A stretch of DNA of 64,000 nucleotides, taken from Candidatus Nomurabacteria bacterium. GTDB taxonomy: Bacteria > Patescibacteriota > Minisyncoccia > Phycocordibacterales > UBA9973. The stretch lies in contig CP064958.1 of assembly GCA_016699085.1 (NCBI GenBank), positions 604,619 to 668,618 of the forward strand. Direction: 5' to 3'. Of the stretch, positions 1-16,572 are shown in pieces; within the stretch, counting starts at the first letter, position 1, and every line of letters begins with the position of its first letter. The notes under the pieces were generated by a model. The model searched no databases. It was not told the origin of the DNA and worked only from the letters and a program-made list of their open reading frames with translations. A program made the position numbers and the translations under genes.

Positions 1-3000
1 GTGTATACCATGACATTAACAGCACAAACATTAAGTGGCACCAAAACAGTTAGTGATTCATTTGAGACGAAGTCATCTCCTTTGTTTGATGTGGTGCGGA
101 CAGGACCAACAAGAATAAATCCAACCGCAGGGTATCCAGTAACGATTGATATTATTCCTAAAAAAAATTGGGAAGGGGTGATCACTGAAAGAGTGCCTTC
201 TGATTTTACTATTTCACCACCAATAAGAAGTATTTCATACGATACTGTTGAAACTCTAAATAATGAAAAGATACTTACGTGGAATGTATCACTTGTTAAA
301 GGCAAGAAAACAACTATTGGCTATTACTTTGATGCTCCAGACGAAAGTCCGCAATTTTATCTCCTTGGACCACTTACATTTGAGCTTGCTTCAACAGAAG
401 ACACAAAAGCGACAACAGTATTTAAGGAGGCACGACAATGGCAAATTGCAAGTGACGTTGCGACTGTCGTACTTTTAACGACTGGTACGAGCTGGAGTGT
501 GCCTGTAGACTTTGATCCAGCAAATAATACTATTGAAGGCATTGGTGGCGGTGGCGGCGGTGGTGGCGGAACAAATGGGACAGGAGCACAGGGTCGTGGA
601 GGTGGAGGAGCTGGTGGAGGAGGTGAATATAGAAAAATTTCGAATTTCAATCCAGGCGGTGCTGGATCAATATCATATGTAATTGGTCAAGGTGGTAGTT
701 TTGGTGCAGCAAATGCAAGTGGTAGTAGTGGTACTGATACGACATGGAATAGTACATCACTCGTAGCTAAGGCGGGTCTTTTAGGTGCAAATACAGGAGC
801 AGGTACAGGAGGTACTGGGGGCGCAGGGGGCACTGGTGGCACAGGAGCTGCAGGGAATAATGATGGTGGTAAGGGTGGCAAAGGTGGGAATCGAAGTGTT
901 ACATTAGGTGGAGGTGGAGGTGGAGGTGGAGGAGCTGGCGGAACAAGTGCTGTCGGAGCTGGAGGAACAAACGGTACTGCTGGTAGTACTGGGGGCGCAG
1001 GAGGTGCTGGGGGTAATGCTTCTGGTGGAACAGCAGGAACGAGTAATGGAGGAGCTGGAGGAGCTGGTACTGTTTGGACCGATAACTCAGGTGGTGCTAA
1101 TAATGGCGTACAAGGTGGAGCTGGTGGTGGCGGTGGAGGAGGACTTGCCGGTGCTGGTGCCGGTGGCGCATCAGGTACGGCTGGTAATTATGGAGCTGGC
1201 GGTGGCGGTGGAGCCGGTGGAGGTTCAGGTTCTTCAGCTGGAAGTGCTGGTACTACAGGAGCAAACGGTATTATTGCTGTTACCTATACTCCGTTTACTA
1301 TTTCGGGTACTGCAAACGGTAATGATACTGCCACTGTAAGAGTTGCTATTAATGGAACTTTACAAGCTCAAACAGGAACTATTTCTGCTAGTGCCTGGTC
1401 TATTAGTGGAGTTACTTTACCAACGTCTGGAGATATTATTACTGTTTGGGTAGATAACGTAACTGATGCAAATGAATCAACTGCTGTAACCATATGGAGC
1501 TCGGGTAGTGTTTCTAGTATGTTGCTAAACACAAATTTTTTAACAATTGGAAGTAATCAAAATACAAGTTTGACGGTCACTAATCTTGGTCAATATGATT
1601 CTGATAATGACGAAGATATTATGCACACCGCAAATAGTGGCGCTTTCTTAGTGCAAGCAGCTGGCAATACGTATACAGGGGAAACTGTTACAATCGCTTC
1701 AAGTAATACACTAACAGTTAGTACGAGTGAATCACTTACAACAGAAAAAATGATTATAAGTGGGACAGTCACTTCATCTGGTACTGCTACGTATACATTT
1801 ACAGGGACAACAGGGACACTCCTTACTAGAACTGGAACATTCACTCAAAGTAATTCAACGGTTAATATTACATCAGCATCTGGAACACCAACATTGCTGT
1901 CTGCTGCGGTCACGTTTCATATTCTTACTATTAATGCAGCTGCAACAGTCATAAATGCAGGTGCCGTCATAACTATCGAAGACACAAGTGGATCTTTGCT
2001 CTATATCCAAACTGGAGTACTCAATGATGATGGTTTAGGAATATCAACTTCGGCTTCTACCACCAATACATTGCAAATTGATTCTGGAGGTACGCTGTGT
2101 TTAGGTGGATCAAGCTCAAATACATCTGCAACTTGCAACACTGGTACTGTATCAACAACGACAAGGTCTATGCCAGCATTTAGTACGTATACATTAAATG
2201 CTTCTTCGACTGTTATTTATTTATCAGATGCGGACACAACTATTTCATCTACACCAACATATGGTAATTTGAAATTACAGCCAAAATTCGTAACTACTGC
2301 ACGTACATATACCTTAAATGGCGCTATGACCGTTAATGGTAATTTTGATATAAATCCCGAAGAATCGGGTGCGGGCACACCTGCACTTACAGTTAATGCC
2401 GGAGGTACCATTACAGTAGCGACAACAAAAACAATAACTCTAACAAGATCAAATAGTTCAAGTAGTTCTCTTGATCTAAGACCTTCATCAACTGATTACG
2501 ATCTTTCGGCTGGGTTCTTGGTGGTAGCCACTAGTGGTACTCTAGATGCAGGAAGTGCTTCATCTGCTATTACACTTACTGGTACTTCTGGAACGCTATT
2601 TACAAAAGCGGGTACCTTCACGCAAGGTACTTCTGAGGTAATTATAACGAGTGCGTCAGGTACGCCGACCTTGCTCTCGGCTGCAACAACATTCCATAAG
2701 TTGACTATTAATAGTACGGCAACCGTGATCAACGCTGGTGCTGTAATAACACTATCGAGTGCAGATGCTGCTAATAAACTTTATATTCAACAAGGTGTAT
2801 TAAATGATGGAGGTAATCAAATCGTTGGCACAGCAAATGGAACTATGCAAATAGATGCTAGTGCAATGCTTTGCATAAATGGCACTGCTGCAGGAACAAA
2901 TGCAACTTGTAATAGTGGTGCAACTATAGGTGGTGGATCAGGCGGATTCCCAACTAACTATACGAATGGCAATATTACCCTTGCAGTTACGTCTACTGTT

Positions 3001-5301
3001 TCATATTTGGGAAATGGTGGTCTGTCTATTTCATCTACACCGACGTATGGGAATCTTAAATTTAATCCAGTAATGGCTGGATCAAATAAAAGTTATACAT
3101 TTTCTGGCGCAACAACTATAAATGGGGATTTTACGATCCTACCTTCAGGTGCTGCATTAGAATTAAAAGTAAAATTAGGGGGCGATCTGACTGTGGCTGC
3201 AACTAAAACAACGACAATTTCAAATAGCGGGGTTCCAACATCTTTATTGCAGCTACGTCCCGTGAGTACAGATTATAATTTGACCACTGGTTTTTTGAAT
3301 GTCAGTAGTGGTTCCGAACTTGATGCAACTATCAGCTCATCGACTATTACTATTACGGGAACATCAGGTACGCTGTATACCAATGCTGGGACATTTGTTA
3401 ATGGAAGTACAGAAGTAAACTTTTCCGGTAATGGTAGTGCGACGATCAATTCTGGCAGTATTACCTTTAATAATTTTAGAAGTTCTGGTACTGGTACAAA
3501 AAGCCTTGGTGTTTCAGGAATTTCTGTTGCGAATAATATATTTATTACTGCAGGAACCTTTAATCCAAACGGAGTAGCCATATCAGGTTCAGGAATTAGT
3601 AATGTACTAACAGCGACAAATAGTACTCTATTGGTAGATCAAAATACAACGACTGCTTTTTCTGATAATTATTCAAGTATGGAAACAGTAACACTTGGTA
3701 CTGGTTCGACAGTTGACTACACGGGAAGTGGTTCGCAGACGATTAGTAGTTCATTCGGTTATGAAAATATAAAAACCTCAACAGGAGGCACCAAGACTTT
3801 AAATGGCACAACGGTGGCTAATGGATCAATTACCATTACTACATCAACACTTACGACAGCAGGTAATACACTGACCGCTCTGAGCATTTCGGTTGATGGG
3901 ACAAGTACATTTACTGCTAGTTCGACATCTACTGTCACGATTAACGGCACCACCGGACCAGTTTTTACGCTTACCTCGGGGGGTGCATTCAATGCAAATT
4001 CATCATCGTTTATCTTTGACGGCAATGCGAGTATGACGCTTCTTTCTGGTGCATTCACCGGTAGTAATGCATTTAATAATGTCACCTTCTCTCCGACAGT
4101 GTCGATTGGCGGTAATAAAACCTATACTCCAAGCTCTACAGCAGTAGAGATAAATGGTAATTTTATTATTAATCCTTCAGCATTGGCTGTCTCGACAACT
4201 TTGATAGTAAATTTAGCAGCAAATCTTACTGTCGCAACAAATAAAACGGTAACAATCCAAGGAACTGGCACTGGGTTAGGCAGGATTGATATACAATCAT
4301 TTGCTCTGAGTGCAGGTTCGATATCAATTGCATCAACTGGGACTATACTCGGTAATAGTGGGAATATTACCTTAGCTGAAAGCTGGACAAATAATGGAAC
4401 ATTTACTGCTGGAACATCAACAGTAACATTAAATAGTGGGACAACTGCAGTCGTAACCGGAACAACGACATTTTACAATCTCACTATTACCCATACGGCA
4501 GCCAAAGAGGTTGATTTTGCAACATCGGGCACCCCAATTTTTCACGTAACGAATGCATTTGTTGTTACGGGTAGTTCAGGTAATTTAATCAAACTGTACT
4601 CAGACTCTGCTGGTACTCAGTGGGAATTTCATCCTACAGGAACTGCTTCAGTTGATTATGCTGATGTCAAAGACGGCGGGTGTCAGTCGGGCGCTATAAC
4701 TATTTCACCGACAAACTCAACGAATAGTGGCAATAATGATCCTTGTTGGTTTTTTGGTACTGCAATATCATTTGATATTGATACAGCGCTCACCGATAGT
4801 GACTCAAATGCCCCATATAGTGTGGCACTGGGCGCTATTACAACATCTGATACGAGAGTATCAGGAAGTACTGATTCTATAAATTATATTTGGTTTGATG
4901 TATCTAGTTCTGCATCTGGTGGTGTAGTTATAACAGTTGTTAATACAAATGGCTCCAATGGTTTAGTTTCTACTTCAGTACCAGCAGATAACATAAATAG
5001 TGCTGACGGTTCTGTCGCAGATGGTACCGAAAATTACGGATTGTGTATTGTTGCGGTTTCAGCAGTGTCAGGCACACTGGATGATGAAGGAGGGTATGAT
5101 GGAGATACGTGTGCAGGTGACAGCGAAACCAATAATGTGCAACAGTTAACATCCACCGGTGAAATTTTATTTGATACAAATGGAGCCCCTATTACTACAG
5201 GTAGGGCACAAATCTCAGTTAATGCTTCAATAAGTGCCACAACTCCGGCACATGATAATTACACGGATACCTTGACCTTTATTGCAACTGGAACATTTTA
5301 A
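1..5301 (+). CDS. Giant secreted/surface protein, 5'-truncated at window edge. It has a Gly-rich low-complexity segment, three tandem ~270-aa Thr/Ser-rich β-helix-like modules, and a ~170-aa C-terminal domain shared with the downstream 379-aa protein.
   Basis: One continuous 1766-aa ORF from base 1; GGxGG-type low complexity at roughly aa 180-420; three internally repeated modules (...TGTSGTL(F/Y)T.AGTF..S.V.I.SASGTPTLLSAA.TFH.LTIN..ATVINAGAVIT...); C-terminal 170 aa about 55% identical to the C-terminus of ORF 5438..6577. Confidence 0.8.
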   Translation: MYTMTLTAQTLSGTKTVSDSFETKSSPLFDVVRTGPTRINPTAGYPVTIDIIPKKNWEGVITERVPSDFTISPPIRSISYDTVETLNNEKILTWNVSLVKGKKTTIGYYFDAPDESPQFYLLGPLTFELASTEDTKATTVFKEARQWQIASDVATVVLLTTGTSWSVPVDFDPANNTIEGIGGGGGGGGGTNGTGAQGRGGGGAGGGGEYRKISNFNPGGAGSISYVIGQGGSFGAANASGSSGTDTTWNSTSLVAKAGLLGANTGAGTGGTGGAGGTGGTGAAGNNDGGKGGKGGNRSVTLGGGGGGGGGAGGTSAVGAGGTNGTAGSTGGAGGAGGNASGGTAGTSNGGAGGAGTVWTDNSGGANNGVQGGAGGGGGGGLAGAGAGGASGTAGNYGAGGGGGAGGGSGSSAGSAGTTGANGIIAVTYTPFTISGTANGNDTATVRVAINGTLQAQTGTISASAWSISGVTLPTSGDIITVWVDNVTDANESTAVTIWSSGSVSSMLLNTNFLTIGSNQNTSLTVTNLGQYDSDNDEDIMHTANSGAFLVQAAGNTYTGETVTIASSNTLTVSTSESLTTEKMIISGTVTSSGTATYTFTGTTGTLLTRTGTFTQSNSTVNITSASGTPTLLSAAVTFHILTINAAATVINAGAVITIEDTSGSLLYIQTGVLNDDGLGISTSASTTNTLQIDSGGTLCLGGSSSNTSATCNTGTVSTTTRSMPAFSTYTLNASSTVIYLSDADTTISSTPTYGNLKLQPKFVTTARTYTLNGAMTVNGNFDINPEESGAGTPALTVNAGGTITVATTKTITLTRSNSSSSSLDLRPSSTDYDLSAGFLVVATSGTLDAGSASSAITLTGTSGTLFTKAGTFTQGTSEVIITSASGTPTLLSAATTFHKLTINSTATVINAGAVITLSSADAANKLYIQQGVLNDGGNQIVGTANGTMQIDASAMLCINGTAAGTNATCNSGATIGGGSGGFPTNYTNGNITLAVTSTVSYLGNGGLSISSTPTYGNLKFNPVMAGSNKSYTFSGATTINGDFTILPSGAALELKVKLGGDLTVAATKTTTISNSGVPTSLLQLRPVSTDYNLTTGFLNVSSGSELDATISSSTITITGTSGTLYTNAGTFVNGSTEVNFSGNGSATINSGSITFNNFRSSGTGTKSLGVSGISVANNIFITAGTFNPNGVAISGSGISNVLTATNSTLLVDQNTTTAFSDNYSSMETVTLGTGSTVDYTGSGSQTISSSFGYENIKTSTGGTKTLNGTTVANGSITITTSTLTTAGNTLTALSISVDGTSTFTASSTSTVTINGTTGPVFTLTSGGAFNANSSSFIFDGNASMTLLSGAFTGSNAFNNVTFSPTVSIGGNKTYTPSSTAVEINGNFIINPSALAVSTTLIVNLAANLTVATNKTVTIQGTGTGLGRIDIQSFALSAGSISIASTGTILGNSGNITLAESWTNNGTFTAGTSTVTLNSGTTAVVTGTTTFYNLTITHTAAKEVDFATSGTPIFHVTNAFVVTGSSGNLIKLYSDSAGTQWEFHPTGTASVDYADVKDGGCQSGAITISPTNSTNSGNNDPCWFFGTAISFDIDTALTDSDSNAPYSVALGAITTSDTRVSGSTDSINYIWFDVSSSASGGVVITVVNTNGSNGLVSTSVPADNINSADGSVADGTENYGLCIVAVSAVSGTLDDEGGYDGDTCAGDSETNNVQQLTSTGEILFDTNGAPITTGRAQISVNASISATTPAHDNYTDTLTFIATGTF

Positions 5302-5437
5302 AAAAATAATAATTTTTGTTGGCAAATTATGATGGTAGTATGGACTGTGGATAACCCATATTGTGGATTTAGATGTTTTTTTGTGTTAAAATAATAGCAC
5401 CTACGAAAATTTATTAACTATTTCATTTCTCTATATT

Positions 5438-6577
5438 ATGAAAAGTATGCGCAGGTCTTTGGTTTTATTAGTTATACTAGCTGTTATTTTAAGTACGACT
5501 TATTATCCGTATCCTCATCTTGTTGAAGCAGCGTCAATTACTAGTGCAAAAGCAACATTTGGTAGATTAAAAGCAAGTACTGCCAATGAATTTGGTACCA
5601 TCGAATTTGCAACTCCATCAGGTATTCAGACCGGCGGTGCTGATACTATTTCATTTACATTTAGTGCTGATTTTACTCTAGCCGCTGAAGTTGCCAATAA
5701 CTACGATATCGAGCTTGGTGATAGTGCAACTTGTTCGAGTGCTACCTATACAGATGAAGTTGTGGCGCTTTCACCATCTGCGACTGATTGGGGGCTTGAT
5801 ATTACAGGTCAGGTAATCACACTTAGTCCTGAAACGGACCAGGTCCTTACGGCTGGTTTTTGTATGCGACTTGTTTGGGGTACAGCTGCAACAACTGGTG
5901 CGACAGGTTCATCGAGTACGATTACAAACGGTGCAGTGGATGATGATGATACCATTACGATTGGAGGCGTTTTTGGTGATAGTGGAACAATAACTGTGGA
6001 TATTATTGATGATGATCAAGTCAGTGTTACTGCATCAGTTAATCAATCCATTACGTTTGACCTTGATGCAACAGTAGCTGATGGCGAGACAAATACGCCG
6101 TATTCTGTGGCACTTGGAACTATTACAACGACAGACACAAGAGTTTCTGGATCAACGGATACTGTGAACATGATTGTTGCTGAAGCAGACACCAATGCTA
6201 GTGGAGGCTTGGTTGTGACAGTCAGAAATGCTAATGGATCAAATGGTCTAGTTTCAACTTCTGTCCCAGCAGATAATATAAATAGTGCTGACGCTGCAAT
6301 GATTGACGGAACAGAAAATTACGGACTATGTGTTATCACTGCTGGTCTAAGTGGCTTTACAATTGCGACCCCCTATGCGACTAATACCTGTGCTACCAAC
6401 TCAGAAACAAATGACGTTGAAGCTCTAACAACAACAGGTGAGAGTATTCTAAGTACAACTGCCCCAGTAGCAGCGGCCCATGCAGAAATTTCAGTTAATG
6501 CTGCAATATCAGGCACTACAGTTGCTCATTCTGACTATACTGATACCCTTACCTTTATTGCCACGGCCACATTCTAA
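5438..6577 (+). CDS. Secreted protein (379 aa). N-terminal signal peptide; C-terminal ~170-aa domain homologous to the C-terminus of the giant protein, both ending ...YTDTLTFIAT(G/A)TF.
   Basis: ORF with hydrophobic N-terminus MKSMRRSLVLLVILAVIL; C-terminal alignment to ORF 1..5301 read directly from the translations. Confidence 0.75.
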   Translation: MKSMRRSLVLLVILAVILSTTYYPYPHLVEAASITSAKATFGRLKASTANEFGTIEFATPSGIQTGGADTISFTFSADFTLAAEVANNYDIELGDSATCSSATYTDEVVALSPSATDWGLDITGQVITLSPETDQVLTAGFCMRLVWGTAATTGATGSSSTITNGAVDDDDTITIGGVFGDSGTITVDIIDDDQVSVTASVNQSITFDLDATVADGETNTPYSVALGTITTTDTRVSGSTDTVNMIVAEADTNASGGLVVTVRNANGSNGLVSTSVPADNINSADAAMIDGTENYGLCVITAGLSGFTIATPYATNTCATNSETNDVEALTTTGESILSTTAPVAAAHAEISVNAAISGTTVAHSDYTDTLTFIATATF

Positions 6578-6690
6578 TATCTTTTAATTATTTGATGAAT
6601 CACATTAAAAAAAAGAGAGTAATCACATTGCTTGTTGTATTGTTTTTTTCTATTGTAAGTTTTACAACAAAAGCTGAGGCCCTGTCTCTT

Positions 6691-6906
6691 TGAAGGAGGG
6701 TATGATGGAGATACGTGTGCAGGTGACAGCGAAACCAATAATGTGCAACAGTTAACATCCACCGGTGAAATTTTATTTGATACAAATGGAGCCCCTATTA
6801 CTACAGGTAGGGCACAAATCTCAGTTAATGCTTCAATAAGTGCCACAACTCCGGCACATGATAATTACACGGATACCTTGACCTTTATTGCAACTGGAAC
6901 ATTTTA
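6691..6906 (+). pseudogene. Duplicated 3'-terminal fragment (last ~72 codons) of the giant surface-protein gene, with no start codon. It is part of the tandem duplication.
   Basis: Nucleotides 6691..6906 are identical to 5085..5301; no in-frame ATG. Confidence 0.8.
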
Positions 6907-7043
6907 AAAAAATAATAATTTTTGTTGGCAAATTATGATGGTAGTATGGACTGTGGATAACCCATATTGTGGATTTAGATGTTTTTTTGTGTTAAAATAA
7001 TAGCACCTACGAAAATTTATTAACTATTTCATTTCTCTATATT

Positions 7044-8185
7044 ATGAAAAGTATGCGCAGGTCTTTGGTTTTATTAGTTATACTAGCTGTTATTTTAAGT
7101 ACGACTTATTATCCGTATCCTCATCTTGTTGAAGCAGCGTCAATTACTAGTGCAAAAGCAACATTTGGTAGATTAAAAGCAAGTACTGCCAATGAATTTG
7201 GTACCATCGAATTTGCAACTCCATCAGGTATTCAGACCGGCGGTGCTGATACTATTTCATTTACATTTAGTGCTGATTTTACTCTAGCCGCTGAAGTTGC
7301 CAATAACTACGATATCGAGCTTGGTGATAGTGCAACTTGTTCGAGTGCTACCTATACAGATGAAGTTGTGGCGCTTTCACCATCTGCGACTGATTGGGGG
7401 CTTGATATTACAGGTCAGGTAATCACACTTAGTCCTGAAACGGACCAGGTCCTTACGGCTGGTTTTTTGTATGCGACTTGTTTGGGGTACAGCTGCAACA
7501 ACTGGTGCGACAGGTTCATCGAGTACGATTACAAACGGTGCAGTGGATGATGATGATACCATTACGATTGGAGGCGTTTTTGGTGATAGTGGAACAATAA
7601 CTGTGGATATTATTGATGATGATCAAGTCAGTGTTACTGCATCAGTTAATCAATCCATTACGTTTGACCTTGATGCAACAGTAGCTGATGGCGAGACAAA
7701 TACGCCGTATTCTGTGGCACTTGGAACTATTACAACGACAGACACAAGAGTTTCTGGATCAACGGATACTGTGAACATGATTGTTGCTGAAGCAGACACC
7801 AATGCTAGTGGAGGCTTGGTTGTGACAGTCAGAAATGCTAATGGATCAAATGGTCTAGTTTCAACTTCTGTCCCAGCAGATAATATAAATAGTGCTGACG
7901 CTGCAATGATTGACGGAACAGAAAATTACGGACTATGTGTTATCACTGCTGGTCTAAGTGGCTTTACAATTGCGACCCCCCTATGCGACTAATACCTGTG
8001 CTACCAACTCAGAAACAAATGACGTTGAAGCTCTAACAACAACAGGTGAGAGTATTCTAAGTACAACTGCCCCAGTAGCAGCGGCCCATGCAGAAATTTC
8101 AGTTAATGCTGCAATATCAGGCACTACAGTTGCTCATTCTGACTATACTGATACCCTTACCTTTATTGCCACGGCCACATTCTAA
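7044..8185 (+). pseudogene. Frameshifted duplicate of the 379-aa secreted-protein gene (copy of 5438..6577). Two single-base homopolymer insertions split it into three ORFs.
   Basis: Identical to 5438..6577 except T6 becomes T7 near 7467 and C5 becomes C6 near 7977; the ORF track shows three overlapping fragments 7044..7550, 7471..7992, 7958..8185. Confidence 0.8.
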
Positions 8186-8199
8186 TATCTTTTAATTAT

Positions 8200-9261
8200 T
8201 TGATGAATCACATTAAAAAAAAGAGAGTAATCACATTGCTTGTTGTATTGTTTTTTTCTATTGTAAGTTTTACAACAAAAGCTGAGGCCCTGTCTCTTTC
8301 TCCTGTGCGATTTGAGCTTTCTGCTGACCCTGGAACCGTGATAAAAGATGAAATGGTATTACTCAATGAGACTGATACCACTGAAACATTTTATGCATCA
8401 TTCTCAAATTTCGAGGCACAAGGCGAGAGTGGAAGTCCTAGCTTTTTGGAGCCAACAGAAGGTCTCGGTACTTGGATTACTACGCAAGATAGTATTACGA
8501 TCCAAGGTGGTCAATCACAGATAGTTCCTTTTGAGATTACTGTGCCAAGCAATGCTCCTGCTGGGGGTAATTTTGCAGCAATTTTTTGGTCAACTAGTCC
8601 TCCAGTTGATGGTAGTGACTCTGTTATTATTGGTGCAAAAACAGGTATATTAGTCCTACTATCAGTCAATGGAGACGTAAAAGTTGCGGGTGGTATTAAT
8701 GACTTTGATACTCTAGGGGGTCAACATTACTTTGAATCATTGCCTATTGATTTTATATATCATTTTCACAATGAAGGTGGCGATAGAATAAAGCCAGACG
8801 GAAATATTATTATTAAGAATATGCTTGGTTTGACCACTCTTATTCCTGCCAATAAGGTTGAGGGGAATGTGCTTCCAAATCAAACTAGAAAATTTGAAGT
8901 ATTGTGGCAAGGTAAAGGTAGTCATTCAGTTAGTGAAGCCCAAGCAATCAGTGGATTTTTTAATAAAGCAAGATACGAATGGCAAAATTTTGCTATTGGC
9001 CGATATAAAGCTACATTATCGCTCATCTATGGCACCGTAACCGAGCCAGTAACCAAGTCAACTGTCCTTTGGGTTTTTCCATGGCACTTCCTGCTTATTT
9101 TTACCATAGTACTTCTCTTGGTATTGTTTATACTAAGAAAACTAATACGCACCTACAATCATTGGATTATTAAGCAAGTTGAAAAGCGGATGGAAGCTCA
9201 AGCCGCAAAGGACGCTACAATTTCTCAAAAAACACCTAATGATATGGGCCCGCGGATATAA
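8200..9261 (+). CDS. Cell-surface protein with N-terminal signal peptide, ~300-aa extracellular domain and a C-terminal TM anchor followed by a basic tail. The architecture is reminiscent of DUF916-type anchor proteins that accompany surface-protein clusters (inference).
   Basis: MMNHIKKKRVITLLVVLFFSIVSF...KAEA signal; C-terminal hydrophobic helix VFPWHFLLIFTIVLLLVLFIL followed by RKLIRTY. Confidence 0.7.
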   Translation: MMNHIKKKRVITLLVVLFFSIVSFTTKAEALSLSPVRFELSADPGTVIKDEMVLLNETDTTETFYASFSNFEAQGESGSPSFLEPTEGLGTWITTQDSITIQGGQSQIVPFEITVPSNAPAGGNFAAIFWSTSPPVDGSDSVIIGAKTGILVLLSVNGDVKVAGGINDFDTLGGQHYFESLPIDFIYHFHNEGGDRIKPDGNIIIKNMLGLTTLIPANKVEGNVLPNQTRKFEVLWQGKGSHSVSEAQAISGFFNKARYEWQNFAIGRYKATLSLIYGTVTEPVTKSTVLWVFPWHFLLIFTIVLLLVLFILRKLIRTYNHWIIKQVEKRMEAQAAKDATISQKTPNDMGPRI

Positions 9262-10975
9262 GAGTTTTGCATTAATGCTTATAGCACTCACCTTTGGGTG
9301 CTTTTGGCTTTTTCAGTCCGCAGACTTATTGCCAATTACAGTCTTTGCTGATGAAATCATAGTAGAGGAAGATCCGGTAAGTGTTAATGCAGTCGTTGGG
9401 TCAGGTGATGGTGGGGAAGATACAGGCGGTGGTGGAGGTTCAGTTTCGTACTGCCAAGACGCAGCTGCAACAAATTTTGGAGATGTGCTGCCTTGTCAAT
9501 ACTCTCCATTGCCGACGACGTGCGTAAATCCACTTGCAACAAACTATGGAGGTGATTTGCCATGTGTTTTTGCAGTAGAGAATTTATGTCAAGATCCTGA
9601 TGCAGTAAATTATCAAGGTGTATTGCCGTGCTTCTATGCTCCACCACCACCGAGATGCCAAGACGCAGCCGCGACAAATTTTGGAGAATTTTTACCATGT
9701 ACATATCCTGAATCTCTCTTGTGTCAGGATTTATTTGCAGAAAATTATGGTAATCCACTGCCTTGTAGTTATCAAGAAGACTGTACGGGGCCTGATTGTG
9801 ATGTTCCGTCGCCGTGTGTTGGCACAGGCTGCACGAATGATGAGAGTACTACTCCAGGAGGTGGAGGGACTGGAAATACAAATCCAACAGGACCGAGCGA
9901 TTTTGCGACGGCTATTACCAACGTGGGCATAATTACTGATCAGGTTACTGAGAGCCTTTCAAATGCGCTTACTATTATCGGCAATACGATCCAGAATGTG
10001 ACACCAGTTCTGGTGATGCCTGCAGGTAGTGTAGAAACAAAAATAATTACAACAGGAGGTTTGGTTGGGGCGGGCGTGTTCTCGCTTGCTTCATTGCTGT
10101 TTATAAATCCACTGTCATTTTCAGAAATTATATTCTTGCCGCTTCGTCTATGGTCGTTACTTCTCGCTGCACTAGGATTGTGGAAGCGCCGTCCGCCGTG
10201 GGGAACTGTGTATGATTCAATAACCAAGCAACCGCTTGATCCTGCTTATGTTGTTCTTTACGATAAGGATGGCAAGGAAGCTGCAACATCGATTACAGAT
10301 CTGGATGGGCGATACGGCTTTTTGCCCCACGTTGGCACCTATACGATTACAGTTCAAAAAACCAATTATGAATTTCCGTCTAAAAAATTACAAGGACTTA
10401 CTCATGATGAAATCTATCAAGATTTGTATTTTGGTAGCAGTCTAATAATCAAAGAAGAAGGGGAAGTTATTACTAAAAACATCCCTATGGATCCGCTTAA
10501 TTTTGACTGGAACGAATTTGCTAAGCGCCAAAACAAACTCATGAAATTTTATTCAAAGCGCTATGTTATTTGGAAGCAAATAAGTGACACTCTTTTTGTT
10601 ATCGGTCTTGTGCTGGCATTGATTGCATTCCTTGTTGCTCCAAAACCATACAATACGATCATACTACTGTGTTACTTGGTCTTTCTGTTCCTTCGACAAA
10701 CTAATCTATTTCGTCATCCACTCGGTAGTGTGGTTGAAAAGAGTACAAATGAGCCACTGGCATTTGCTGTCGTACATATATTCCATGCCGGGTCTACCAG
10801 TGAGATTATGCGCAAAGTTGCAGATAAAAGTGGGCGTTTCTACTCATTGGTTCCTAACGGTAAATATTATGTAAAAATAGAGAAAAAGAATGCAGATATG
10901 AGTTATAGTCTCGTTCACACTTCCATGCCGTTTATTGTTCGTAAAGGTCATATCGATACAACGTTTAAAATATAG
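9239..10975 (+). CDS. Membrane/surface protein. It has a signal peptide, six ~20-aa Cys-containing repeats (C-x-D-x-x-A-x-N-Y/F-G-x-x-L-P-C-x-Y), a Gly/Thr linker, TM segments, and two C-terminal carboxypeptidase-regulatory-like (CarboxypepD_reg-type) β-sandwich domains.
   Basis: Repeats read in the translation (CQDAAATNFGDVLPCQY, CVNPLATNYGGDLPCVF, CQDPDAVNYQGVLPCFY, CQDAAATNFGEFLPCTY, CQDLFAENYGNPLPCSY); motifs DLDGRYGF...GTYTITV and DKSGRFYS...GKYYVKI. Start chosen at the internal ATG 9239 with a signal-peptide-like N-terminus; the ORF is open from 9179. Confidence 0.65.
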   Translation: MIWARGYKSFALMLIALTFGCFWLFQSADLLPITVFADEIIVEEDPVSVNAVVGSGDGGEDTGGGGGSVSYCQDAAATNFGDVLPCQYSPLPTTCVNPLATNYGGDLPCVFAVENLCQDPDAVNYQGVLPCFYAPPPPRCQDAAATNFGEFLPCTYPESLLCQDLFAENYGNPLPCSYQEDCTGPDCDVPSPCVGTGCTNDESTTPGGGGTGNTNPTGPSDFATAITNVGIITDQVTESLSNALTIIGNTIQNVTPVLVMPAGSVETKIITTGGLVGAGVFSLASLLFINPLSFSEIIFLPLRLWSLLLAALGLWKRRPPWGTVYDSITKQPLDPAYVVLYDKDGKEAATSITDLDGRYGFLPHVGTYTITVQKTNYEFPSKKLQGLTHDEIYQDLYFGSSLIIKEEGEVITKNIPMDPLNFDWNEFAKRQNKLMKFYSKRYVIWKQISDTLFVIGLVLALIAFLVAPKPYNTIILLCYLVFLFLRQTNLFRHPLGSVVEKSTNEPLAFAVVHIFHAGSTSEIMRKVADKSGRFYSLVPNGKYYVKIEKKNADMSYSLVHTSMPFIVRKGHIDTTFKI

Positions 10976-11574: not shown

Positions 11575-11862
11575 ATGGGAAATATTCTCCACAAGGCTCT
11601 GTATACTGTTATTCTGCTTGGTTCATTTGTCTATTTGCCATTTTGGATAAGCATTTGTATCGGTATTTTAGGTATCTTCTTGTTTAGTTTTGAAATTATC
11701 ACAGTCATTATTTTTTTTGTTGCAGACATGGTGTACGCGGATCATTTTCTGTTACATATGTTTGTCGGCAAAATTGCTCTGACATTATTAGCACTTTTTT
11801 TAGTTGGTATTTCACTTTACATCAAGCCAAAAATTCGCAGTTTACAATACAATGAGAATTAA
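11575..11862 (+). CDS. Small integral membrane protein (2-3 TM helices), function unknown.
   Basis: 95-aa ORF, strongly hydrophobic; overlaps the start of the downstream PBP gene by 11 nt. Confidence 0.4.
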   Translation: MGNILHKALYTVILLGSFVYLPFWISICIGILGIFLFSFEIITVIIFFVADMVYADHFLLHMFVGKIALTLLALFLVGISLYIKPKIRSLQYNEN

Positions 11863-13537
11863 ATTTTATAAAAAGAAAGTGCAACTTTACGAAATCGCAC
11901 CTGATGAGATTTTTCTTGACGCGCAAAATATACCTGAATTCGATACACAGCAGTTTGAAGGCAGACTAGAAAAATCAATCAACAAGAAGACTATCTTTGC
12001 GCTTGGTTTTTTTTCATTGCTATTTGGGATCTTATTTGCTGGAAGAATTGGTATTTTAGAAATTAAAAAAGGTCAAGCATATCTTGATCGAAGTGAATAC
12101 AACAGTCTAGCGACAACTCCACTGTTTGCTGATCGTGGCATTGTTCTTGACCGCAACAATAAAGAATTGATTGCAAATGTTTTAACCACTAGCGAAGATA
12201 CGTTCCCGCACCGTACGTACATCGATTTGCCTGGCTTTGGACATTTATTAGGCTACGTAAGCTACCCCGCTAAAGATAGTAATGGTATTTACTGGCAAGA
12301 AAAGATAATTGGCAAGGATGGTGTCGAAAAGCAATTCAATCAAGAACTTGCTGGAACTAATGGTCTTAAAATTCTTGAAACCGATGCGTTTGGTAATGCA
12401 CAGTCAGAAAATATACTTGATAAGCCAAAAAATGGCGATAATCTTGTCCTTGCCGTTGATGCTGATATTCAAAGTGTTTTATATAATGCAATCAAAGATT
12501 TCACTGCTCAAACAAAATTTGAAGGCGGCGCAGGTGTCATTATGAATGTAGAAACTGGAGAAATTATAGCTATGACTAGTTTCCCTGAATATGATTCGAA
12601 TATATTATCTGAAGGTGCTGATAGGGAGATGATCAATTCATATATTCATGATCCAAGAAAAGTCTTTTTAAATAAAGTCGTTTCTGGACTTTATACACCA
12701 GGGTCCATTGTTAAGCCATTTGTTGCTATTGGGGCATTGTCTGAAGGTATTATTTCACCAGAAAAGCAGATACTAAGTACTGGCTCTATTGCAATCCCTA
12801 ACCCGTATGATCCAGATTTAAAAACTGTGTTTAATGACTGGGAAGCTCATGGTTGGGTCGATCTTCGCCACGCATTAGCAGTATCATCAAATGTGTATTT
12901 TTATGAAATTGGGGGTGGATTTCAAGAGCAAGTAGGTCTTGGTATTGATAACTTACATAAATACGAATCTATGTTTGGTATGGGCAAAAAAACAAATATA
13001 AATATGCCAGGTGAAACGGCTGGCAATATTCCTAATCCAGTATGGAAAGAGAAAAATTTTCCTGGTGATCCTTGGCGAATTGGTGATACATACAATACAG
13101 CAATCGGACAATATGGCGTGCAAGTTACGCCGTTACAGATGGTGCGAGGTATCGCAGCAATAGCCAATTACGGTCGCATGATTACTCCCACTGTACTTAA
13201 AACTGATGATGTGCAAAAAGGTAGCCCAATAGATATTGCTAAAGAAAATTTTACGATTATCCACGAAGCAATGCGGCTCACGGTAACTGAAGGCACTGGT
13301 ACAGTTTTAAATACGCCGGCAGTTATGGTTGCAGCAAAAACAGGTACAGCTCAGGTTGGTATTGCAAAACAGTTTATGAACTCGTGGTCAGTTGGTTTTT
13401 TCCCGTATGAACATCCCAAATATGCGTTTGTTGTACTCGTTGAACGTGGCCCAAAATCAAATACAATCGGGGCTTCGCATGTCATGCGAACCGTGCTTGA
13501 TTATATAAGTGCAAATAAGCCATCTATGCTCGAGTAA
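11852..13537 (+). CDS. mrdA: Penicillin-binding protein 2-type D,D-transpeptidase.
   Basis: SxxK (SIVKP), SxN (SSN) and KTG(T) (KTGTAQ) motifs in order; N-terminal TM anchor; a second PBP (ftsI) lies in the dcw cluster, so this one is assigned to the PBP2 role by context. Confidence 0.8.
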   Translation: MRIKFYKKKVQLYEIAPDEIFLDAQNIPEFDTQQFEGRLEKSINKKTIFALGFFSLLFGILFAGRIGILEIKKGQAYLDRSEYNSLATTPLFADRGIVLDRNNKELIANVLTTSEDTFPHRTYIDLPGFGHLLGYVSYPAKDSNGIYWQEKIIGKDGVEKQFNQELAGTNGLKILETDAFGNAQSENILDKPKNGDNLVLAVDADIQSVLYNAIKDFTAQTKFEGGAGVIMNVETGEIIAMTSFPEYDSNILSEGADREMINSYIHDPRKVFLNKVVSGLYTPGSIVKPFVAIGALSEGIISPEKQILSTGSIAIPNPYDPDLKTVFNDWEAHGWVDLRHALAVSSNVYFYEIGGGFQEQVGLGIDNLHKYESMFGMGKKTNINMPGETAGNIPNPVWKEKNFPGDPWRIGDTYNTAIGQYGVQVTPLQMVRGIAAIANYGRMITPTVLKTDDVQKGSPIDIAKENFTIIHEAMRLTVTEGTGTVLNTPAVMVAAKTGTAQVGIAKQFMNSWSVGFFPYEHPKYAFVVLVERGPKSNTIGASHVMRTVLDYISANKPSMLE

Positions 13538-13542
13538 TAAGA

Positions 13543-13570
13543 TTGACTTTAGCCTATAAATGATTACAAT
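13543..13570 (+). promoter_or_regulatory. Candidate promoter for greA: -35 TTGACT (13543-48), 16-nt spacer, -10 TACAAT (13565-70).
   Basis: Hexamers read directly; the ATG of greA is 7 nt after the -10, implying a short or absent leader. Confidence 0.35.
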
Positions 13571-13576
13571 AATCCA

Positions 13577-14044
13577 ATGAATCAAGACACAGAATACCTA
13601 ACGAAGGATAGAAAAAAGGAGCTTGAAGTCGAATTGCTGAATTTGCAAACGAACAGGCGCAAGGAGATATTAGAAAATTTGGAGTATGCCAAATCTCTTG
13701 GTGATTTGTCTGAGAATGCTGAATATCACCAAGCACGCGAAGAACAAACAAAACTTGAGGAACGAATTTCAAAAATCGAACATGTGCTCAAAGAGTCAAA
13801 AGTCATTGAGCAGCATCACAGTACAACAGTTGAAATCGGCTCAACAGTCCAAATACAAAAGAAAGGCGTCAAGGATGTGCAGACAATGCATGTCGTTGGA
13901 AGTGAAGAGGCTGATATGGCGCAGGGTAAAATATCTCACCGATCACCGCTTGGCAATGCACTCTTAGGCAAGAAAAAGAATGATAGTGTTTCAGTTAAAA
14001 GTCCCAACGGTACAGCAACTTATACCATAATTGCCATTGAATAA
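13577..14044 (+). CDS. greA: Transcription elongation factor GreA.
   Basis: 155 aa; N-terminal coiled-coil ...LGDLSENAEYHQAREEQ... and C-terminal FKBP-like domain typical of GreA. Confidence 0.9.
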   Translation: MNQDTEYLTKDRKKELEVELLNLQTNRRKEILENLEYAKSLGDLSENAEYHQAREEQTKLEERISKIEHVLKESKVIEQHHSTTVEIGSTVQIQKKGVKDVQTMHVVGSEEADMAQGKISHRSPLGNALLGKKKNDSVSVKSPNGTATYTIIAIE

Positions 14045-14058
14045 TAATTCGCCGCACT

Positions 14059-15519: not shown

Positions 15520-15565
15520 AAAAGCACTCTATATCAGAATGCTTTTCTTCTCTTAACTAAATAGA

Positions 15566-16450
15566 TCAGTAAACAAAATCTGTAACGGGTGTGCAGATAT
15601 TTTCTCTTTCCGTTATAATTTTCATTGCCTCAAAAACCATTCGATGCCCTGCGCACTGTGTCTTAATCTCGCAGGAGGGCAACATATAGTGAGAAAATAA
15701 ACTTATTTCTCCTAACCGGTCCACCATTGTGTGGGATAAAAATTTTCTTTGCAATTCGTCAGGGCTTATTTCTTCATCGGGCCACACAACAATTTTATGA
15801 TACTCAAGATTGAATAATCTTGATATAAATTTGAAAAGGTTTGAAATCCCCTGAGGTCCAACTGGAAAAATTTCCGCAATAAGTTCGTCCGTTACTGTCC
15901 TACTTGCTCTACCTTTGACTGACAATTTTTTGTAGTCAATTGATACATTTAATTTAGTCACTTCGTGATTCGCAGGACGTATTTCAACAAACTTATAAAG
16001 TCCATTTTCCCTTAGACTTAGTGGTCCGTATGAATTTATAAATGAAAGATATGGAACTTCGTTATTAGTTATTTCTGCATGTTCCATTATTTTTTCAAAC
16101 ATTGTTCCTGAAGTTAGGTACGGAGGCCATGTGCTTGCTGAAATTGCAATACTATCAAGTCCCGTGAATCGTAGTGCTCCAATATGTTCGTAAATAAATA
16201 ATTTTTTCTTCCCATATTGTAAATAAATATTATGCAACTTTGAAATTTTTGCAATTCGATAATCTATTGGGATATATTTATAAGTGTTTTTTTTGGAGGT
16301 AGGTATTTTCCAGAAAATACCCCTTTCTCCATTAGGCATTGGTTCAAACATTATCCAGGCTTCTCCTCCAAAAGGGTTTTTTCCTAGTATAGGAGTCACA
16401 GGTTCTTTGAGTATGATCTGTTTCATTGTCAATTTTTTATTATAATACAA
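15566..16450 (-). CDS. LpxC-like UDP-3-O-acyl-N-acetylglucosamine deacetylase family protein.
   Basis: Conserved catalytic/zinc-ligand blocks align to LpxC: EHIGALRF (E-H), HTMVDRLGE (H-x3-D), CAGHRM (G-H). The true start may be the internal MKQIILK. Confidence 0.6.
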   Translation of the reverse strand: MYYNKKLTMKQIILKEPVTPILGKNPFGGEAWIMFEPMPNGERGIFWKIPTSKKNTYKYIPIDYRIAKISKLHNIYLQYGKKKLFIYEHIGALRFTGLDSIAISASTWPPYLTSGTMFEKIMEHAEITNNEVPYLSFINSYGPLSLRENGLYKFVEIRPANHEVTKLNVSIDYKKLSVKGRASRTVTDELIAEIFPVGPQGISNLFKFISRLFNLEYHKIVVWPDEEISPDELQRKFLSHTMVDRLGEISLFSHYMLPSCEIKTQCAGHRMVFEAMKIITERENICTPVTDFVY

Positions 16451-16508
16451 TTTTTATTTATTTTTGTCAAAGTTTCGTTACTTCAAGTTATCCACAGGGT
16501 ATAGCTTT

Positions 16509-16560: not shown

Positions 16561-16572
16561 AAAAATGTTTTT

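What the first reader, a model, noticed from the sequence alone, without database searches (positions are those of the whole stretch)
1..9261. Surface-protein cluster with a shared C-terminal ~170-aa domain and a TM-anchored partner (Csc/WxL-like logic with a different domain)
The giant protein (1..5301) and the 379-aa secreted protein (5438..6577) have unrelated N-terminal regions but share a ~170-aa C-terminal domain ending in the identical terminal motif YTDTLTFIAT(G/A)TF. The next gene encodes a signal-peptide protein with a C-terminal TM anchor, and further Cys-repeat and small secreted proteins follow. A shared C-terminal module on otherwise different secreted proteins next to a membrane-anchored partner is the organising principle of sortase/LPXTG, T9SS-CTD, PEP-CTERM and Csc WxL systems. 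This C-terminal domain contains none of those signatures (no WxL, no LPXTG, no PEP). It may therefore be a lineage-specific surface attachment or sorting domain whose receptor is the anchored neighbour.
Basis: partly seen in the sequence, partly recalled or inferred. Interest (0 to 1): 0.6.

Follow-up and report, generated by a model that had tools for sequence, protein, structure and literature searches.

The report
Pam-type pilus operon in a CPR bacterium
The shared C-terminal domain is the strand-accepting pilin domain of the recently described "Pam" pilus of Candidate Phyla Radiation bacteria. The membrane-anchored neighbour is most likely its chaperone, so this is a divergent member of a known system, not a new sorting signal.

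Summary
The giant ORF (1..5301) and the 379-aa ORF (5438..6577) share a 179-aa C-terminal domain (59% identity, E 6e-59). A protein with a signal peptide and a C-terminal TM anchor (8200..9261) follows.

It holds a second copy of the 379-aa gene, broken by two homopolymer +1 insertions.

The domain is not confined to two paralogues. A profile finds 808 protein clusters, always at the extreme C-terminus of proteins of 260-2955 aa. All named sources are Patescibacteria.

In 83 related loci, the one to three genes upstream of each homologue of the anchored protein end in this domain or a sister form. The sister form matches NCBIfam NF058581, "Pam pilus system pilin subunit" (59 of 59 above cut-off). 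A 2026 preprint shows Pam pilins polymerise by donor-strand exchange with membrane-anchored PapD-like chaperones.

The 379-aa protein has the Pam pilin layout. Conservation peaks at its linker strand and at the last strand of the domain. The anchored protein folds like WxLIP and chaperone-usher chaperones. The giant protein lacks the linker motif and is probably a tip adhesin.

Verdict: new member of a known kind.

The parts
1..5301 (+). Last 1766 codons of a giant secreted protein (about 2490 aa in close relatives). It has a Gly-rich region and long Thr/Ser-rich repeats and ends in the pilin-type C-terminal domain. Probable tip adhesin that accepts a donor strand but does not donate one.
   Evidence: ORF. 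The full-length 2491-aa orthologue in L091 has an N-terminal signal/anchor. No Pfam or NCBIfam hit. The DDDQVxVTAxV linker motif is absent upstream of its C-terminal domain.
4762..5298 (+). C-terminal domain (CTD) of the giant protein, aa 1588-1766, ending YTDTLTFIATGTF.
   Evidence: 59% identity to the CTD of the 379-aa protein. Domain HMM E 1.4e-79.
5438..6577 (+). Pam-type pilin, 379 aa. By my reading it consists of a signal peptide (aa 1-33), an N-terminal domain (aa 34-185), a linker/donor strand (aa 186-200, IIDDDQVSVTASV) and a CTD (aa 201-379).
   Evidence: ORF. AlphaFold CTD pLDDT >90. Foldseek top hits are the CsuA/B and CfaB pilins. An HMM of the NF058581-positive sister family hits it at E 3.4e-18. 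Orthologues sit directly upstream of p353 homologues.
5993..6037 (+). Predicted donor (linker) strand of the 379-aa pilin, aa 186-200.
   Evidence: Among the most conserved segments across 78 type-B proteins: conservation 0.66-0.71 against 0.51 for the N-terminal domain. The position matches the linker strand of PamA/PamB in the preprint.
6038..6574 (+). CTD of the 379-aa pilin, a truncated Ig-like acceptor domain with invariant Cys298 and Cys318.
5085..8299 (+). Two tandem copies of a 1607-bp unit (5085-6691 and 6691-8299).
   Evidence: No mismatches and two 1-nt insertions in copy 2. Absent from the close relatives L091 and L092.
6592..6693 (+). Duplicated 5' fragment of the p353 gene: 33 codons of signal peptide, then a stop created at the duplication junction.
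6691..6907 (+). Duplicated copy of the last 71 codons of the giant gene, without a start of its own.
7044..8185 (+). Second copy of the 379-aa pilin gene. It is interrupted by +1 insertions in homopolymers at 7463 (T6) and 7976 (C6) and becomes identical to copy 1 once these are removed.
   Evidence: The NCBI record annotates the 173-aa middle fragment (P0023).
8200..9261 (+). Membrane-anchored protein with two beta-sandwich domains (353 aa). By my reading: signal peptide aa 1-30, domain 1 about aa 31-160, domain 2 about aa 161-292, TM helix about aa 295-317, cytoplasmic helical tail. Probable PamC/PamD-type chaperone, WxLIP-like.
   Evidence: AlphaFold pLDDT 83. Foldseek top hits are WxLIP 9i25_C and 9i1y, followed by the chaperones CfaA, CsuC and EcpB. 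Pfam WxLIP_PGBD is hit below threshold in 39 of 48 family members. hhalign against real WxLIP gives 94%, or 81% without signal peptides.
9082..9150 (+). C-terminal transmembrane helix of the 353-aa protein.
   Evidence: Hydrophobic stretch WHFLLIFTIVLLLVLFILRKLIR. Helix 295-344 in the model.
9179..10975 (+). 598-aa membrane protein with five Cys repeats, several TM segments and two CarboxypepD_reg domains. It is a neighbour whose membership in the system is uncertain.
   Evidence: Pfam. Conserved downstream only in close relatives (L090, L092). It occupies the place of the dockerin-type gene found in 78 related loci.

Best explanation
The region is a Pam-type pilus locus of a Patescibacteria (Candidatus Nomurabacteria, Paceibacteria-type) genome.

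Proposed mechanism:
- The 379-aa protein is a pilin exported by Sec. It has an N-terminal beta-sandwich domain, a linker strand (aa 186-200, DDDQVSVTASV) and a C-terminal incomplete Ig-like domain (CTD).
- Subunits polymerise by donor-strand exchange: the linker strand of one subunit completes the CTD of the neighbouring subunit.
- The giant protein carries the same CTD but no linker motif. It can therefore only accept a strand, and it most likely sits at the distal tip as an adhesin.
- The 353-aa protein has two Ig-like domains held in the cytoplasmic membrane by a C-terminal helix. It is the counterpart of the membrane-anchored PapD/FimC-like chaperones PamC/PamD. It would cap the open CTD of newly exported subunits with one of its own strands and hand them to the growing fibre.
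- No usher is needed, because there is no outer membrane.

Shown here: the homology, the fold similarity, the gene order and the conservation pattern. Inferred by analogy with the cryo-EM work on Ca. Mycosynbacter amalyticus: polymerisation, the tip position of the giant protein and the chaperone role.
For: 1. The CTD family is large and always terminal. There are 808 cluster representatives, in proteins of 260-2955 aa, and all 150 listed matches run to the last residue. In the related loci 170 of 171 CTDs end at the protein's C-terminus.
2. Synteny. In all 83 related loci the one to three genes directly upstream of the p353 homologue end in this CTD (fam1) or a sister form (fam2).
3. fam1 and fam2 are homologous over the whole domain: hhalign 98.7%, E 3e-16.
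4. All 59 fam2 CTDs pass the curated cut-off of NCBIfam NF058581 'Pam pilus system pilin subunit'. An HMM built from them hits the window's 379-aa protein at E 3.4e-18.
5. The confident CTD model (pLDDT >90) has the chaperone-usher pilins CsuA/B and CfaB as its best PDB matches (probability 0.96-0.99), followed by FimA, PapA and FimG.
6. Over 78 pilin-type proteins, conservation peaks at the linker plus first CTD strand (0.66-0.71) and at the last strand (0.72-0.77), against 0.51 for the N-terminal domain. The preprint reports the same pattern for PamA and PamB.
7. There is an invariant Cys pair in the CTD. The preprint reports paired cysteines in Pam pilins.
8. The p353 model has two beta-sandwich domains and a TM helix. 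Its best PDB matches are WxLIP and the CU chaperones CfaA, CsuC and EcpB. This is the architecture described for PamC/PamD.
Against: - The window's own proteins do not reach any NCBIfam Pam model at E <= 1. Only 3 of 48 fam1 members hit NF058581. Membership therefore rests on transitive homology and synteny.
- No NCBIfam model matches the p353 family. I could not compare it directly with the PamC, PamD or PamR sequences.
- RbmA, the structural relative the preprint names for the terminator PamR, is also among p353's top Foldseek hits.
- The N-terminal domain of the 379-aa protein was predicted with low confidence, so its nine-strand sandwich is unverified.
- The Foldseek E-value for the CTD is only 4.5e-3.
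- No counterparts of PamT, PamE or PamR were identified in the window.
- No complex was modelled, so no donor-strand interaction was tested directly.
- The preprint places Pam pilins mainly in Saccharimonadia and Microgenomatia and does not mention Paceibacteria in its main text or held supplement.
Confidence: 0.72

Rival explanations
1. Non-polymerising surface display, as in WxL/WxLIP clusters. The CTD is a docking domain. The membrane-anchored 353-aa protein binds it permanently by strand complementation, and so tethers the giant adhesin and the 379-aa protein to the cell surface. No filament forms. This is essentially the first reader's reading.
For: - p353's closest relatives by structure and by profile are WxLIP proteins: Foldseek rank 1-2, Pfam WxLIP_PGBD in 39 of 48 members, and hhalign 81-94%.
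- The cluster logic (large protein, small protein and anchored partner) matches the definition of WxL clusters (PMC9772566, PMC10599100).
- In WxL clusters a WxLIP strand is predicted to complete the WxL sandwich.
- The last-strand motifs of real WxL proteins (YTANITFDL, YTTTITYNL, YTGTITWTL) resemble YTDTLTFIA.
Against: - The CTD is homologous to a family whose characterised members form filaments by donor-strand exchange.
- The linker strand upstream of the CTD is one of the most conserved parts of the pilin-type proteins. A pure docking domain would not require this.
- The CTD does not match the WxL domain: no Pfam PF13731 hit in 107 sequences, and hhalign <3% covering the last strand only.
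- The WxL chain of 9i25 is not among the top 50 structural matches.
Confidence: 0.15
2. The system is a Pam pilus, but the 353-aa protein is the terminator/anchor (PamR-like, RbmA-like) and not the chaperone. Its conserved mature N-terminal strand would insert into the last subunit and tether the fibre to the membrane. Subunits would self-assemble or use another factor.
For: - RbmA structures are among p353's top Foldseek hits (ranks 5, 6, 14; E about 1e-8).
- The preprint describes PamR as RbmA-like, with a C-terminal TM helix and an extra N-terminal strand.
- The window has only one such protein.
- The mature N-terminus of p353 (ALTLTPxRxE) is strongly conserved.
Against: - TM-scores to RbmA are poor (TMt 0.35, rmsd about 15.6 A). 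They are better for WxLIP (TMt 0.44-0.49) and for the chaperones CfaA and CsuC (TMt 0.46-0.53).
- The conserved N-terminal segment is modelled as the first strand of domain 1, not as a free extension.
- p353 homologues sit immediately after the pilin genes in all 83 related loci, as expected for a core assembly factor.
Confidence: 0.12
3. The shared C-terminus is only a local gene-fragment duplication between two neighbouring paralogues and has no wider meaning.
For: The region does contain a very recent 1.6-kb tandem duplication, which shows that segmental duplication happens here.
Against: - The two CTDs are only 59% identical in protein, and a 133-nt stretch of them is 75% identical in DNA.
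- The domain occurs in 808 protein clusters.
- p353 relatives occur in 238 species genomes, and in each of the 83 related loci examined they sit next to CTD genes.
Confidence: 0.01

Closest known systems
Pam pilus of CPR bacteria (PamA/PamB pilins, PamC/PamD membrane-anchored chaperones; Ca. Mycosynbacter amalyticus; bioRxiv 10.64898/2026.03.03.709456; NCBIfam NF058581, NF058579)
   Same: [quoted passage not shown]
- The CTD contains a Cys pair.
- A two-Ig-domain protein with a C-terminal TM helix is encoded next to the pilins.
- There is no usher.
- The family is restricted to CPR.
- The sister CTD subfamily in syntenic loci passes the NCBIfam cut-off.
   Different: - The window's CTD subfamily (ending ...AHsDYTDTLTFIATGTF) is not detected by NF058581.
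- There is only one chaperone-like gene, and no recognisable PamT, PamE or PamR.
- The CTD is also fused to a giant (about 2500 aa) protein.
- The host lineage is Nomurabacteria/Paceibacteria-type, not the Saccharimonadia or Microgenomatia named in the preprint.
- Relatives carry dockerin-like and cohesin-like genes downstream.
- No ATP synthase gene was found among the ten downstream ORFs I scanned.
Csc / WxL clusters of Firmicutes (small WxL, large WxL and WxLIP = DUF916 + DUF3324 + TM helix)
   Same: - The cluster logic is the same: a large and a small secreted protein share a C-terminal domain next to an anchored protein of about 340-350 aa with two Ig domains.
- WxLIP is p353's best match by structure and by profile.
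- Partner binding by strand complementation is predicted in both.
- The last-strand motifs are similar.
   Different: - The CTD is not a WxL domain. There is no PF13731 hit, no first WxL motif, and hhalign is <3%.
- WxL proteins have variable tails after the last motif, whereas this CTD ends exactly at ...TGTF-COOH.
- WxL proteins are not known to polymerise.
- There is no LPXTG partner here.
Archaic (sigma-type) chaperone-usher pili: Csu pili, SCPU-domain pilins (PF05229) with CsuC chaperone and CsuD usher
   Same: - CsuA/B is the best structural match of the CTD, and CsuC is among the best matches of p353.
- The C-terminal motif at the very end of the protein is shared: CsuA/B ...GDYKDTLLVTVNF and SCPU ...GTYTDTLxVTLxF, against ...SDYTDTLTFIATATF here.
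- The sister family has an FGTL hairpin motif.
- Both use donor-strand logic.
   Different: - There is no usher and no outer membrane.
- The chaperone is membrane-anchored.
- The donor strand is an internal linker after an extra N-terminal domain, not an N-terminal extension.
- There is no Pfam SCPU or PapD hit, and hhalign is only 3-5% and limited to the motif.
TasA / archaeal bundling pili (AbpA), donor-strand fibres of monoderms and archaea
   Same: They are secreted beta-sandwich subunits that polymerise by donor-strand insertion without an usher (PMC9245690).
   Different: There is no Peptidase_M73 hit, no SipW-type peptidase and no TapA-like gene. TasA and AbpA structures do not appear among the top structural matches.

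Membership tests
Pam pilus system (CPR) | The pilin C-terminal domain matches NCBIfam NF058581 (CPR_Pam_pilin_C) at or above its cut-off of 55 bits. | tested here: not met
   The window's 379-aa and giant proteins give no hit at E <= 1. Only 3 of 48 subfamily members hit the model, best E 4.6e-8. The sister subfamily in syntenic loci does pass: 59 of 59 above cut-off.
Pam pilus system (CPR) | Homology of the CTD to bona fide Pam pilin CTDs. | tested here: met
   hhalign of fam1 against the NF058581-positive fam2 gives probability 98.7% and E 3e-16 over 156 columns. The fam2 HMM hits the 379-aa protein at E 3.4e-18. This is indirect: the PamA and PamB sequences themselves were not available.
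Pam pilus system (CPR) | Pilin architecture: Sec signal peptide, N-terminal beta-sandwich, linker (donor) strand and truncated Ig-like CTD, with the linker and CTD groove most conserved. | tested here: met
   The signal peptide and layout are read from the sequence. The CTD fold resembles CU pilins. Conservation peaks at the linker and at the last strand. The fold of the N-terminal domain is unverified because its pLDDT is <50.
Pam pilus system (CPR) | A PapD/FimC-like chaperone with two beta-sandwich domains and a C-terminal TM helix, encoded in the operon. | tested here: met
   p353 model. Foldseek hits to CfaA, CsuC and EcpB at E 1e-8 to 1e-6, and to WxLIP. It lies adjacent to the pilin genes in all 83 related loci. 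Not compared with the PamC or PamD sequences.
Pam pilus system (CPR) | Accessory subunits PamT (tip), PamE and PamR (terminator/anchor). | tested here: inconclusive
   No NF058579 (PamT) hit for the window proteins. fam2 members hit PamT only below its cut-off. The giant CTD protein may take the tip role. No PamR candidate was found apart from p353 itself.
Pam pilus system (CPR) | Filament formation by donor-strand exchange. | not testable with these tools
Csc / WxL cluster | At least two proteins with a WxL domain (Pfam PF13731, with the dual W-x-L motif). | tested here: not met
   No PF13731 hit in 48 + 59 CTD sequences at E <= 10. A real WxL protein scores 2.5e-39 as a control. hhalign against 25 real WxL sequences gives <3%. 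The first WxL motif is absent, and the second position holds F, Y or occasionally W.
Csc / WxL cluster | A WxLIP protein: PGBD (PF06030), HBD (PF11797) and a C-terminal TM helix, 337-365 aa. | tested here: inconclusive
   The length (353 aa) and architecture match. PF06030 is hit in 39 of 48 members but below the gathering score (best 3.9e-6; the window protein scores 16.9 bits against 27.3). PF11797 is not among the 21 families matched by any of the 48 members at E <= 0.1. hhalign gives 81-94% for domain 1 only. The top Foldseek hit is WxLIP.
Chaperone-usher pili (archaic, SCPU/Csu type) | SCPU-domain pilins (PF05229), a PapD-like periplasmic chaperone (PF00345/PF02753) and an outer-membrane usher. 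| tested here: not met
   No Pfam hits to the SCPU or PapD families. hhalign gives 3-5% against SCPU and 3% against CU chaperones. No usher-sized gene is present in the window cluster. Only the fold and the terminal motif are shared.
Sortase/LPXTG, PEP-CTERM, T9SS-CTD sorting signals | A C-terminal sorting motif followed by a TM segment and a basic tail (LPXTG, PEP-CTERM), or a T9SS CTD together with the cognate sorting enzyme. | tested here: not met
   The proteins end in ...TGTF with no hydrophobic tail. No such Pfam or NCBIfam hits were found.

The most novel reading that the evidence does not exclude
The membrane-anchored assembly protein of this Paceibacteria Pam-type locus would be a true homologue of Firmicutes WxLIP (DUF916/DUF3324). 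On this reading the Csc/WxL clusters, the CPR Pam pili and, more distantly, the archaic SCPU/Csu chaperone-usher pili are branches of one ancient family: a two-Ig-domain chaperone plus subunits with an incomplete Ig fold. The monoderm forms keep the chaperone tethered to the membrane and need no usher. It would imply that WxL proteins may also be assembled, or even polymerised, by donor-strand exchange. The Pam preprint does not mention WxL, DUF916 or Csu.
Probability: 0.35. Interest if true: 0.6.

Novelty: new member of a known kind. Interest (0 to 1): 0.4.

Why it matters
Pam pili were described only in 2026, from one cultured Saccharibacteria-related parasite.

This locus shows a syntenic, divergent version in Nomurabacteria/Paceibacteria-type genomes. 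At least 238 species-level genomes encode the chaperone-like protein.

The pilin-domain subfamily in the window is one that the current NCBI model misses, so many such genes are still annotated as hypothetical proteins.

The giant protein carrying the pilin domain is a concrete candidate for the host-contact adhesin of these epibionts.

The closest sequence and structure relatives of the chaperone-like protein are the WxLIP proteins of lactic acid bacteria and enterococci. That gives a testable link between two surface systems that have so far been treated separately.

Tried and rejected
- WxL-domain membership of the CTD is rejected. There is no PF13731 hit. hhalign against 25 real WxL sequences, fetched from plasmids and by a homologue search, aligns only the last strand.
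- SCPU membership is rejected at the sequence level. hhalign gives 3-5% and covers the motif only.
- TasA/camelysin, LPXTG and PEP-CTERM gave no hits.
- A WxL consensus that I wrote from memory found nothing relevant in the PDB. I therefore could not retrieve the WxL chain of 9i25.
- The PDB sequence set holds no recognisable Pam pilin. The preprint's supplement holds no sequences.
- The downstream genes (598, 198 and 95 aa) are not conserved beyond close relatives. I do not count them as core parts.
- ATP-synthase co-localisation, reported for pam operons, was not seen among the ten downstream ORFs I scanned.
- Literature search found no paper combining WxL with a CPR term among the papers listed.

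Full report
**1. The observation**

The window opens inside a long ORF (1..5301, 1766 aa). It is followed by a 379-aa ORF (5438..6577) that has a clear signal peptide.

BLASTP aligns the last 179 residues of the two proteins at 59% identity (E 6e-59). Nothing else in them aligns significantly. Both end in YTDTLTFIAT(G/A)TF.

ORF 8200..9261 (353 aa) has a signal peptide and a C-terminal hydrophobic helix. ORF 9179..10975 has five Cys-bounded repeats. The description is therefore correct.

Positions 5085-6691 are repeated in tandem at 6691-8299, with no substitutions and two extra bases.
- Both extra bases lie in homopolymers: T5 to T6 at 7463 and C5 to C6 at 7976. Removing them restores an ORF identical to the 379-aa gene.
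- The junction leaves a 33-codon stub of the 8200 gene and a copy of the giant gene's last 71 codons.
- Two contigs from close relatives (84-90% nucleotide identity) carry a single copy. Their gene order is giant (2491 aa), 379 aa, 358 aa, 568 aa, 176 aa, 95 aa, PBP2.
- The duplication is therefore private to this assembly. It is either a very recent event or an assembly or polishing artefact.

The source is very probably a Candidatus Nomurabacteria MAG. A 173-aa NCBI protein from an 808-kb contig is 99% identical to the middle frameshift fragment over the aligned part.

**2. How widespread the domain is**

The domain alone finds 90 proteins. Those that carry a source name are nearly all labelled as Patescibacteria-group MAGs. 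None has a Pfam domain.

A profile search of 1.84 billion representatives finds 808 clusters at E <= 1e-3 and 522 at E <= 1e-10. In every one of the 150 listed matches the domain runs to the last residue. The proteins range from about 260 to 2955 aa.

**3. Gene context**

The 353-aa protein (p353) has 469 relatives by the word-indexed search, none with a recorded Pfam domain. A scan of one genome per species found relatives in 238 genomes, of which 80 loci were kept.

I translated all the loci and searched them with HMMs.
- In 42 of the 84 sequences searched (83 related loci plus the window), the genes directly upstream of the p353 homologue carry the same domain, which I call fam1.
- In the remaining loci the upstream genes end in a related motif...AGsYsTnlTY(W)IATGNF, which I call fam2.
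- fam1 and fam2 align over the whole domain: hhalign 98.7%, E 3e-16.
- 170 of 171 domains end at the protein's C-terminus.

The usual gene order in the related loci is:
- a large protein of 1000-2900 aa;
- a small protein of 130-170 aa;
- a 'type A' protein of about 265-360 aa;
- a 'type B' protein of about 350-410 aa;
- the p353 homologue.

In most loci these are followed by a dockerin-bearing protein and two cohesin-like TM-anchored proteins. The window has the short form, like its closest relatives L004 and L005: giant, type B, p353.

**4. Folds**

The AlphaFold model of the 379-aa protein is confident for residues 200-379 (pLDDT >90) and poor for the N-terminal part.
- Foldseek against the PDB ranks the archaic chaperone-usher (CU) pilin CsuA/B first (E 4.5e-3, probability 0.99).
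- CfaB follows, then FimA, PapA, FimG and other CU pilins.

The p353 model (pLDDT 83) has two beta-sandwich domains and a long C-terminal helix.
- Its best matches are WxLIP of Enterococcus faecium: 9i25_C 'bound to long WxL' and 9i1y, at E 4-7e-9.
- The CU chaperones CfaA, CsuC and EcpB follow, and RbmA also appears.

**5. Identification**

Pfam has nothing above threshold for the domain.

NCBIfam release 20 has NF058581 'Pam pilus system pilin subunit' and NF058579 'CPR-type pilus protein PamT'.
- All 59 fam2 domains pass the NF058581 cut-off.
- Only 3 of 48 fam1 members hit NF058581, and the window's own proteins do not hit it at E <= 1.
- An HMM built from the fam2 sequences detects the 379-aa protein at E 3.4e-18.

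The underlying work is a 2026 preprint (bioRxiv 10.64898/2026.03.03.709456). It reports the following.
- Cryo-EM of filaments from Ca. Mycosynbacter amalyticus identified the pilins PamA and PamB.
- The linker of one subunit fills the C-terminal domain of the next subunit (donor-strand exchange).
- The operon encodes PapD/FimC-like chaperones (PamC, PamD) that carry a C-terminal TM helix, unlike periplasmic chaperones.
- It also encodes a tip pilin (PamT), PamE and an RbmA-like terminator/anchor (PamR). There is no usher.

**6. Fit of the window to that model**

The 379-aa protein has the Pam pilin layout: signal peptide, N-terminal domain of about 150 aa, the segment IIDDDQVSVTASV, then the C-terminal domain.

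I aligned 78 such proteins taken from directly upstream of p353 homologues.
- Conservation is highest at the linker plus first strand of the domain (0.66-0.71) and at the last strand (0.72-0.77).
- The N-terminal domain scores 0.51.

An invariant Cys pair lies in the domain.

The giant protein, like the large proteins of other loci, lacks the linker motif ahead of its domain. It can accept a strand but cannot donate one. That is the property of a tip subunit, comparable to the two-domain tip adhesins of CU pili (established knowledge). This placement is an inference.

p353 has the PamC/PamD architecture, but I could not compare it with their sequences, and no NCBIfam model matches it. A PamR-like anchoring role therefore remains a rival reading.

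**7. Relation to WxL and SCPU systems**

- 39 of 48 p353 relatives hit Pfam WxLIP_PGBD, although below the gathering score.
- hhalign against six real WxLIP proteins, taken from Enterococcus, Lactiplantibacillus and Lactococcus plasmids, gives 94%, or 81% with signal peptides removed. It covers domain 1 only.
- hhalign against CU chaperones gives 3%.
- WxL clusters are defined by a small WxL protein, a large WxL protein and WxLIP. AlphaFold predicts that a WxLIP strand completes the WxL sandwich (PMC9772566, PMC10599100).

The domain itself is not a WxL domain.
- There is no PF13731 hit, while a real WxL protein scores 2.5e-39 in the same test.
- hhalign aligns only the last strand.

The same holds for SCPU pilins. 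The terminal motif is strikingly similar: CsuA/B ends ...GDYKDTLLVTVNF and other SCPU proteins end ...GTYTDTLxVTLxF. Profile comparison nevertheless stays at 3-5%.

A deep common origin of the WxL, Pam and archaic CU systems is therefore possible but not shown. The preprint does not mention WxL, DUF916 or Csu.

**8. Verdict**

The finding is real, and its central intuition is right: a shared C-terminal module that works with the anchored neighbour. The module is a pilin polymerisation domain of a system already described and already modelled at NCBI.

What is new here is modest.
- There is a divergent domain subfamily that the NCBI model misses.
- Syntenic loci occur across many Nomurabacteria/Paceibacteria-type genomes.
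- The pilin domain is fused to a giant putative adhesin.
- The chaperone-like protein has an affinity to WxLIP.
- There is a private tandem duplication.

I rate this as a new member of a known kind, with interest 0.4.

Noticed in passing
window 5085-8299: A perfect 1607-bp tandem duplication. Its second copy differs only by +1 bases in a T5 run and a C5 run (7463, 7976), which splits the second pilin gene into three ORFs. Close relatives have a single copy. The pattern suggests long-read homopolymer errors inside a repeat that short reads could not polish, or a very recent duplication.
   Followed up: partly
L003:8500-11676, L004:10956-14605, L005:5858-9443 (and 78-81 of 83 related loci): Downstream of the p353 homologue, relatives encode a protein of about 300 aa with Big_6 and type I dockerin domains, followed by two TM-anchored proteins whose N-terminal domain looks cohesin-like. 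The window lacks these genes and has the 598-aa Cys-repeat/CarboxypepD_reg membrane protein in their place. The first ~70 residues of that protein resemble the start of the dockerin protein.
   Followed up: partly
window 9452-9771: Five tandem repeats of 66-69 nt encode C-x(13-14)-C units (CQDAAATNFGDVLPC...) in the 598-aa protein. No family was assigned to them.
   Followed up: no
window about 540-1320 (giant protein aa about 180-440): A long Gly/Ala-rich low-complexity tract (GGGGAGGTGG...) lies in the giant protein. It coincides with the highest GC content and GC skew of the window (0.449 and 0.229 for positions 1-2000).
   Followed up: no
window about 4480-4640; L004, L005, L007, L045, L067: Large domain-bearing proteins of many loci share a conserved module just upstream of the pilin domain: ...VTGSSGNLIKLYSDSAGTQWEFHPTGTASVDYADVKDGGCQSG... 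It has no family assignment.
   Followed up: no
L001:7531-8846, L003:4885-6177 and many other loci: Relatives encode two further conserved proteins that are absent from the window. One is a secreted protein of 130-170 aa ending in ..QF/..EF/..TF. The other is the 'type A' protein, in which the pilin domain is preceded by only ~55 aa with three STNF-like strand motifs (DLTSTNFIIRDPIIGTGGGYGTSTNFQLISAGHTLLSG..STNF.TRYGFLYY). Their roles (adaptor, tip or initiator) are unknown.
   Followed up: no
L087:5999-6715 and L087:7824-12302 (Enterococcus plasmid): Bona fide WxL-cluster proteins can have Y or F in place of the second-motif Trp (YTTTITYNLTADP, YTANITFDLRSAP). The 'WxL' signature is therefore not strict even within the family.
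   Followed up: no
L090 (JGI contig Ga0490005_000040): The region upstream of the 97%-identical p353 homologue is broken into many ORFs of 50-120 aa where relatives have the giant gene. This looks like a frameshift-rich assembly.
   Followed up: no
window 11804-19942: The pilus locus sits directly upstream of cell-envelope and housekeeping genes: a PBP2-type transpeptidase, GreA, a class II aminoacyl-tRNA synthetase, MraW and a second PBP.
   Followed up: partly
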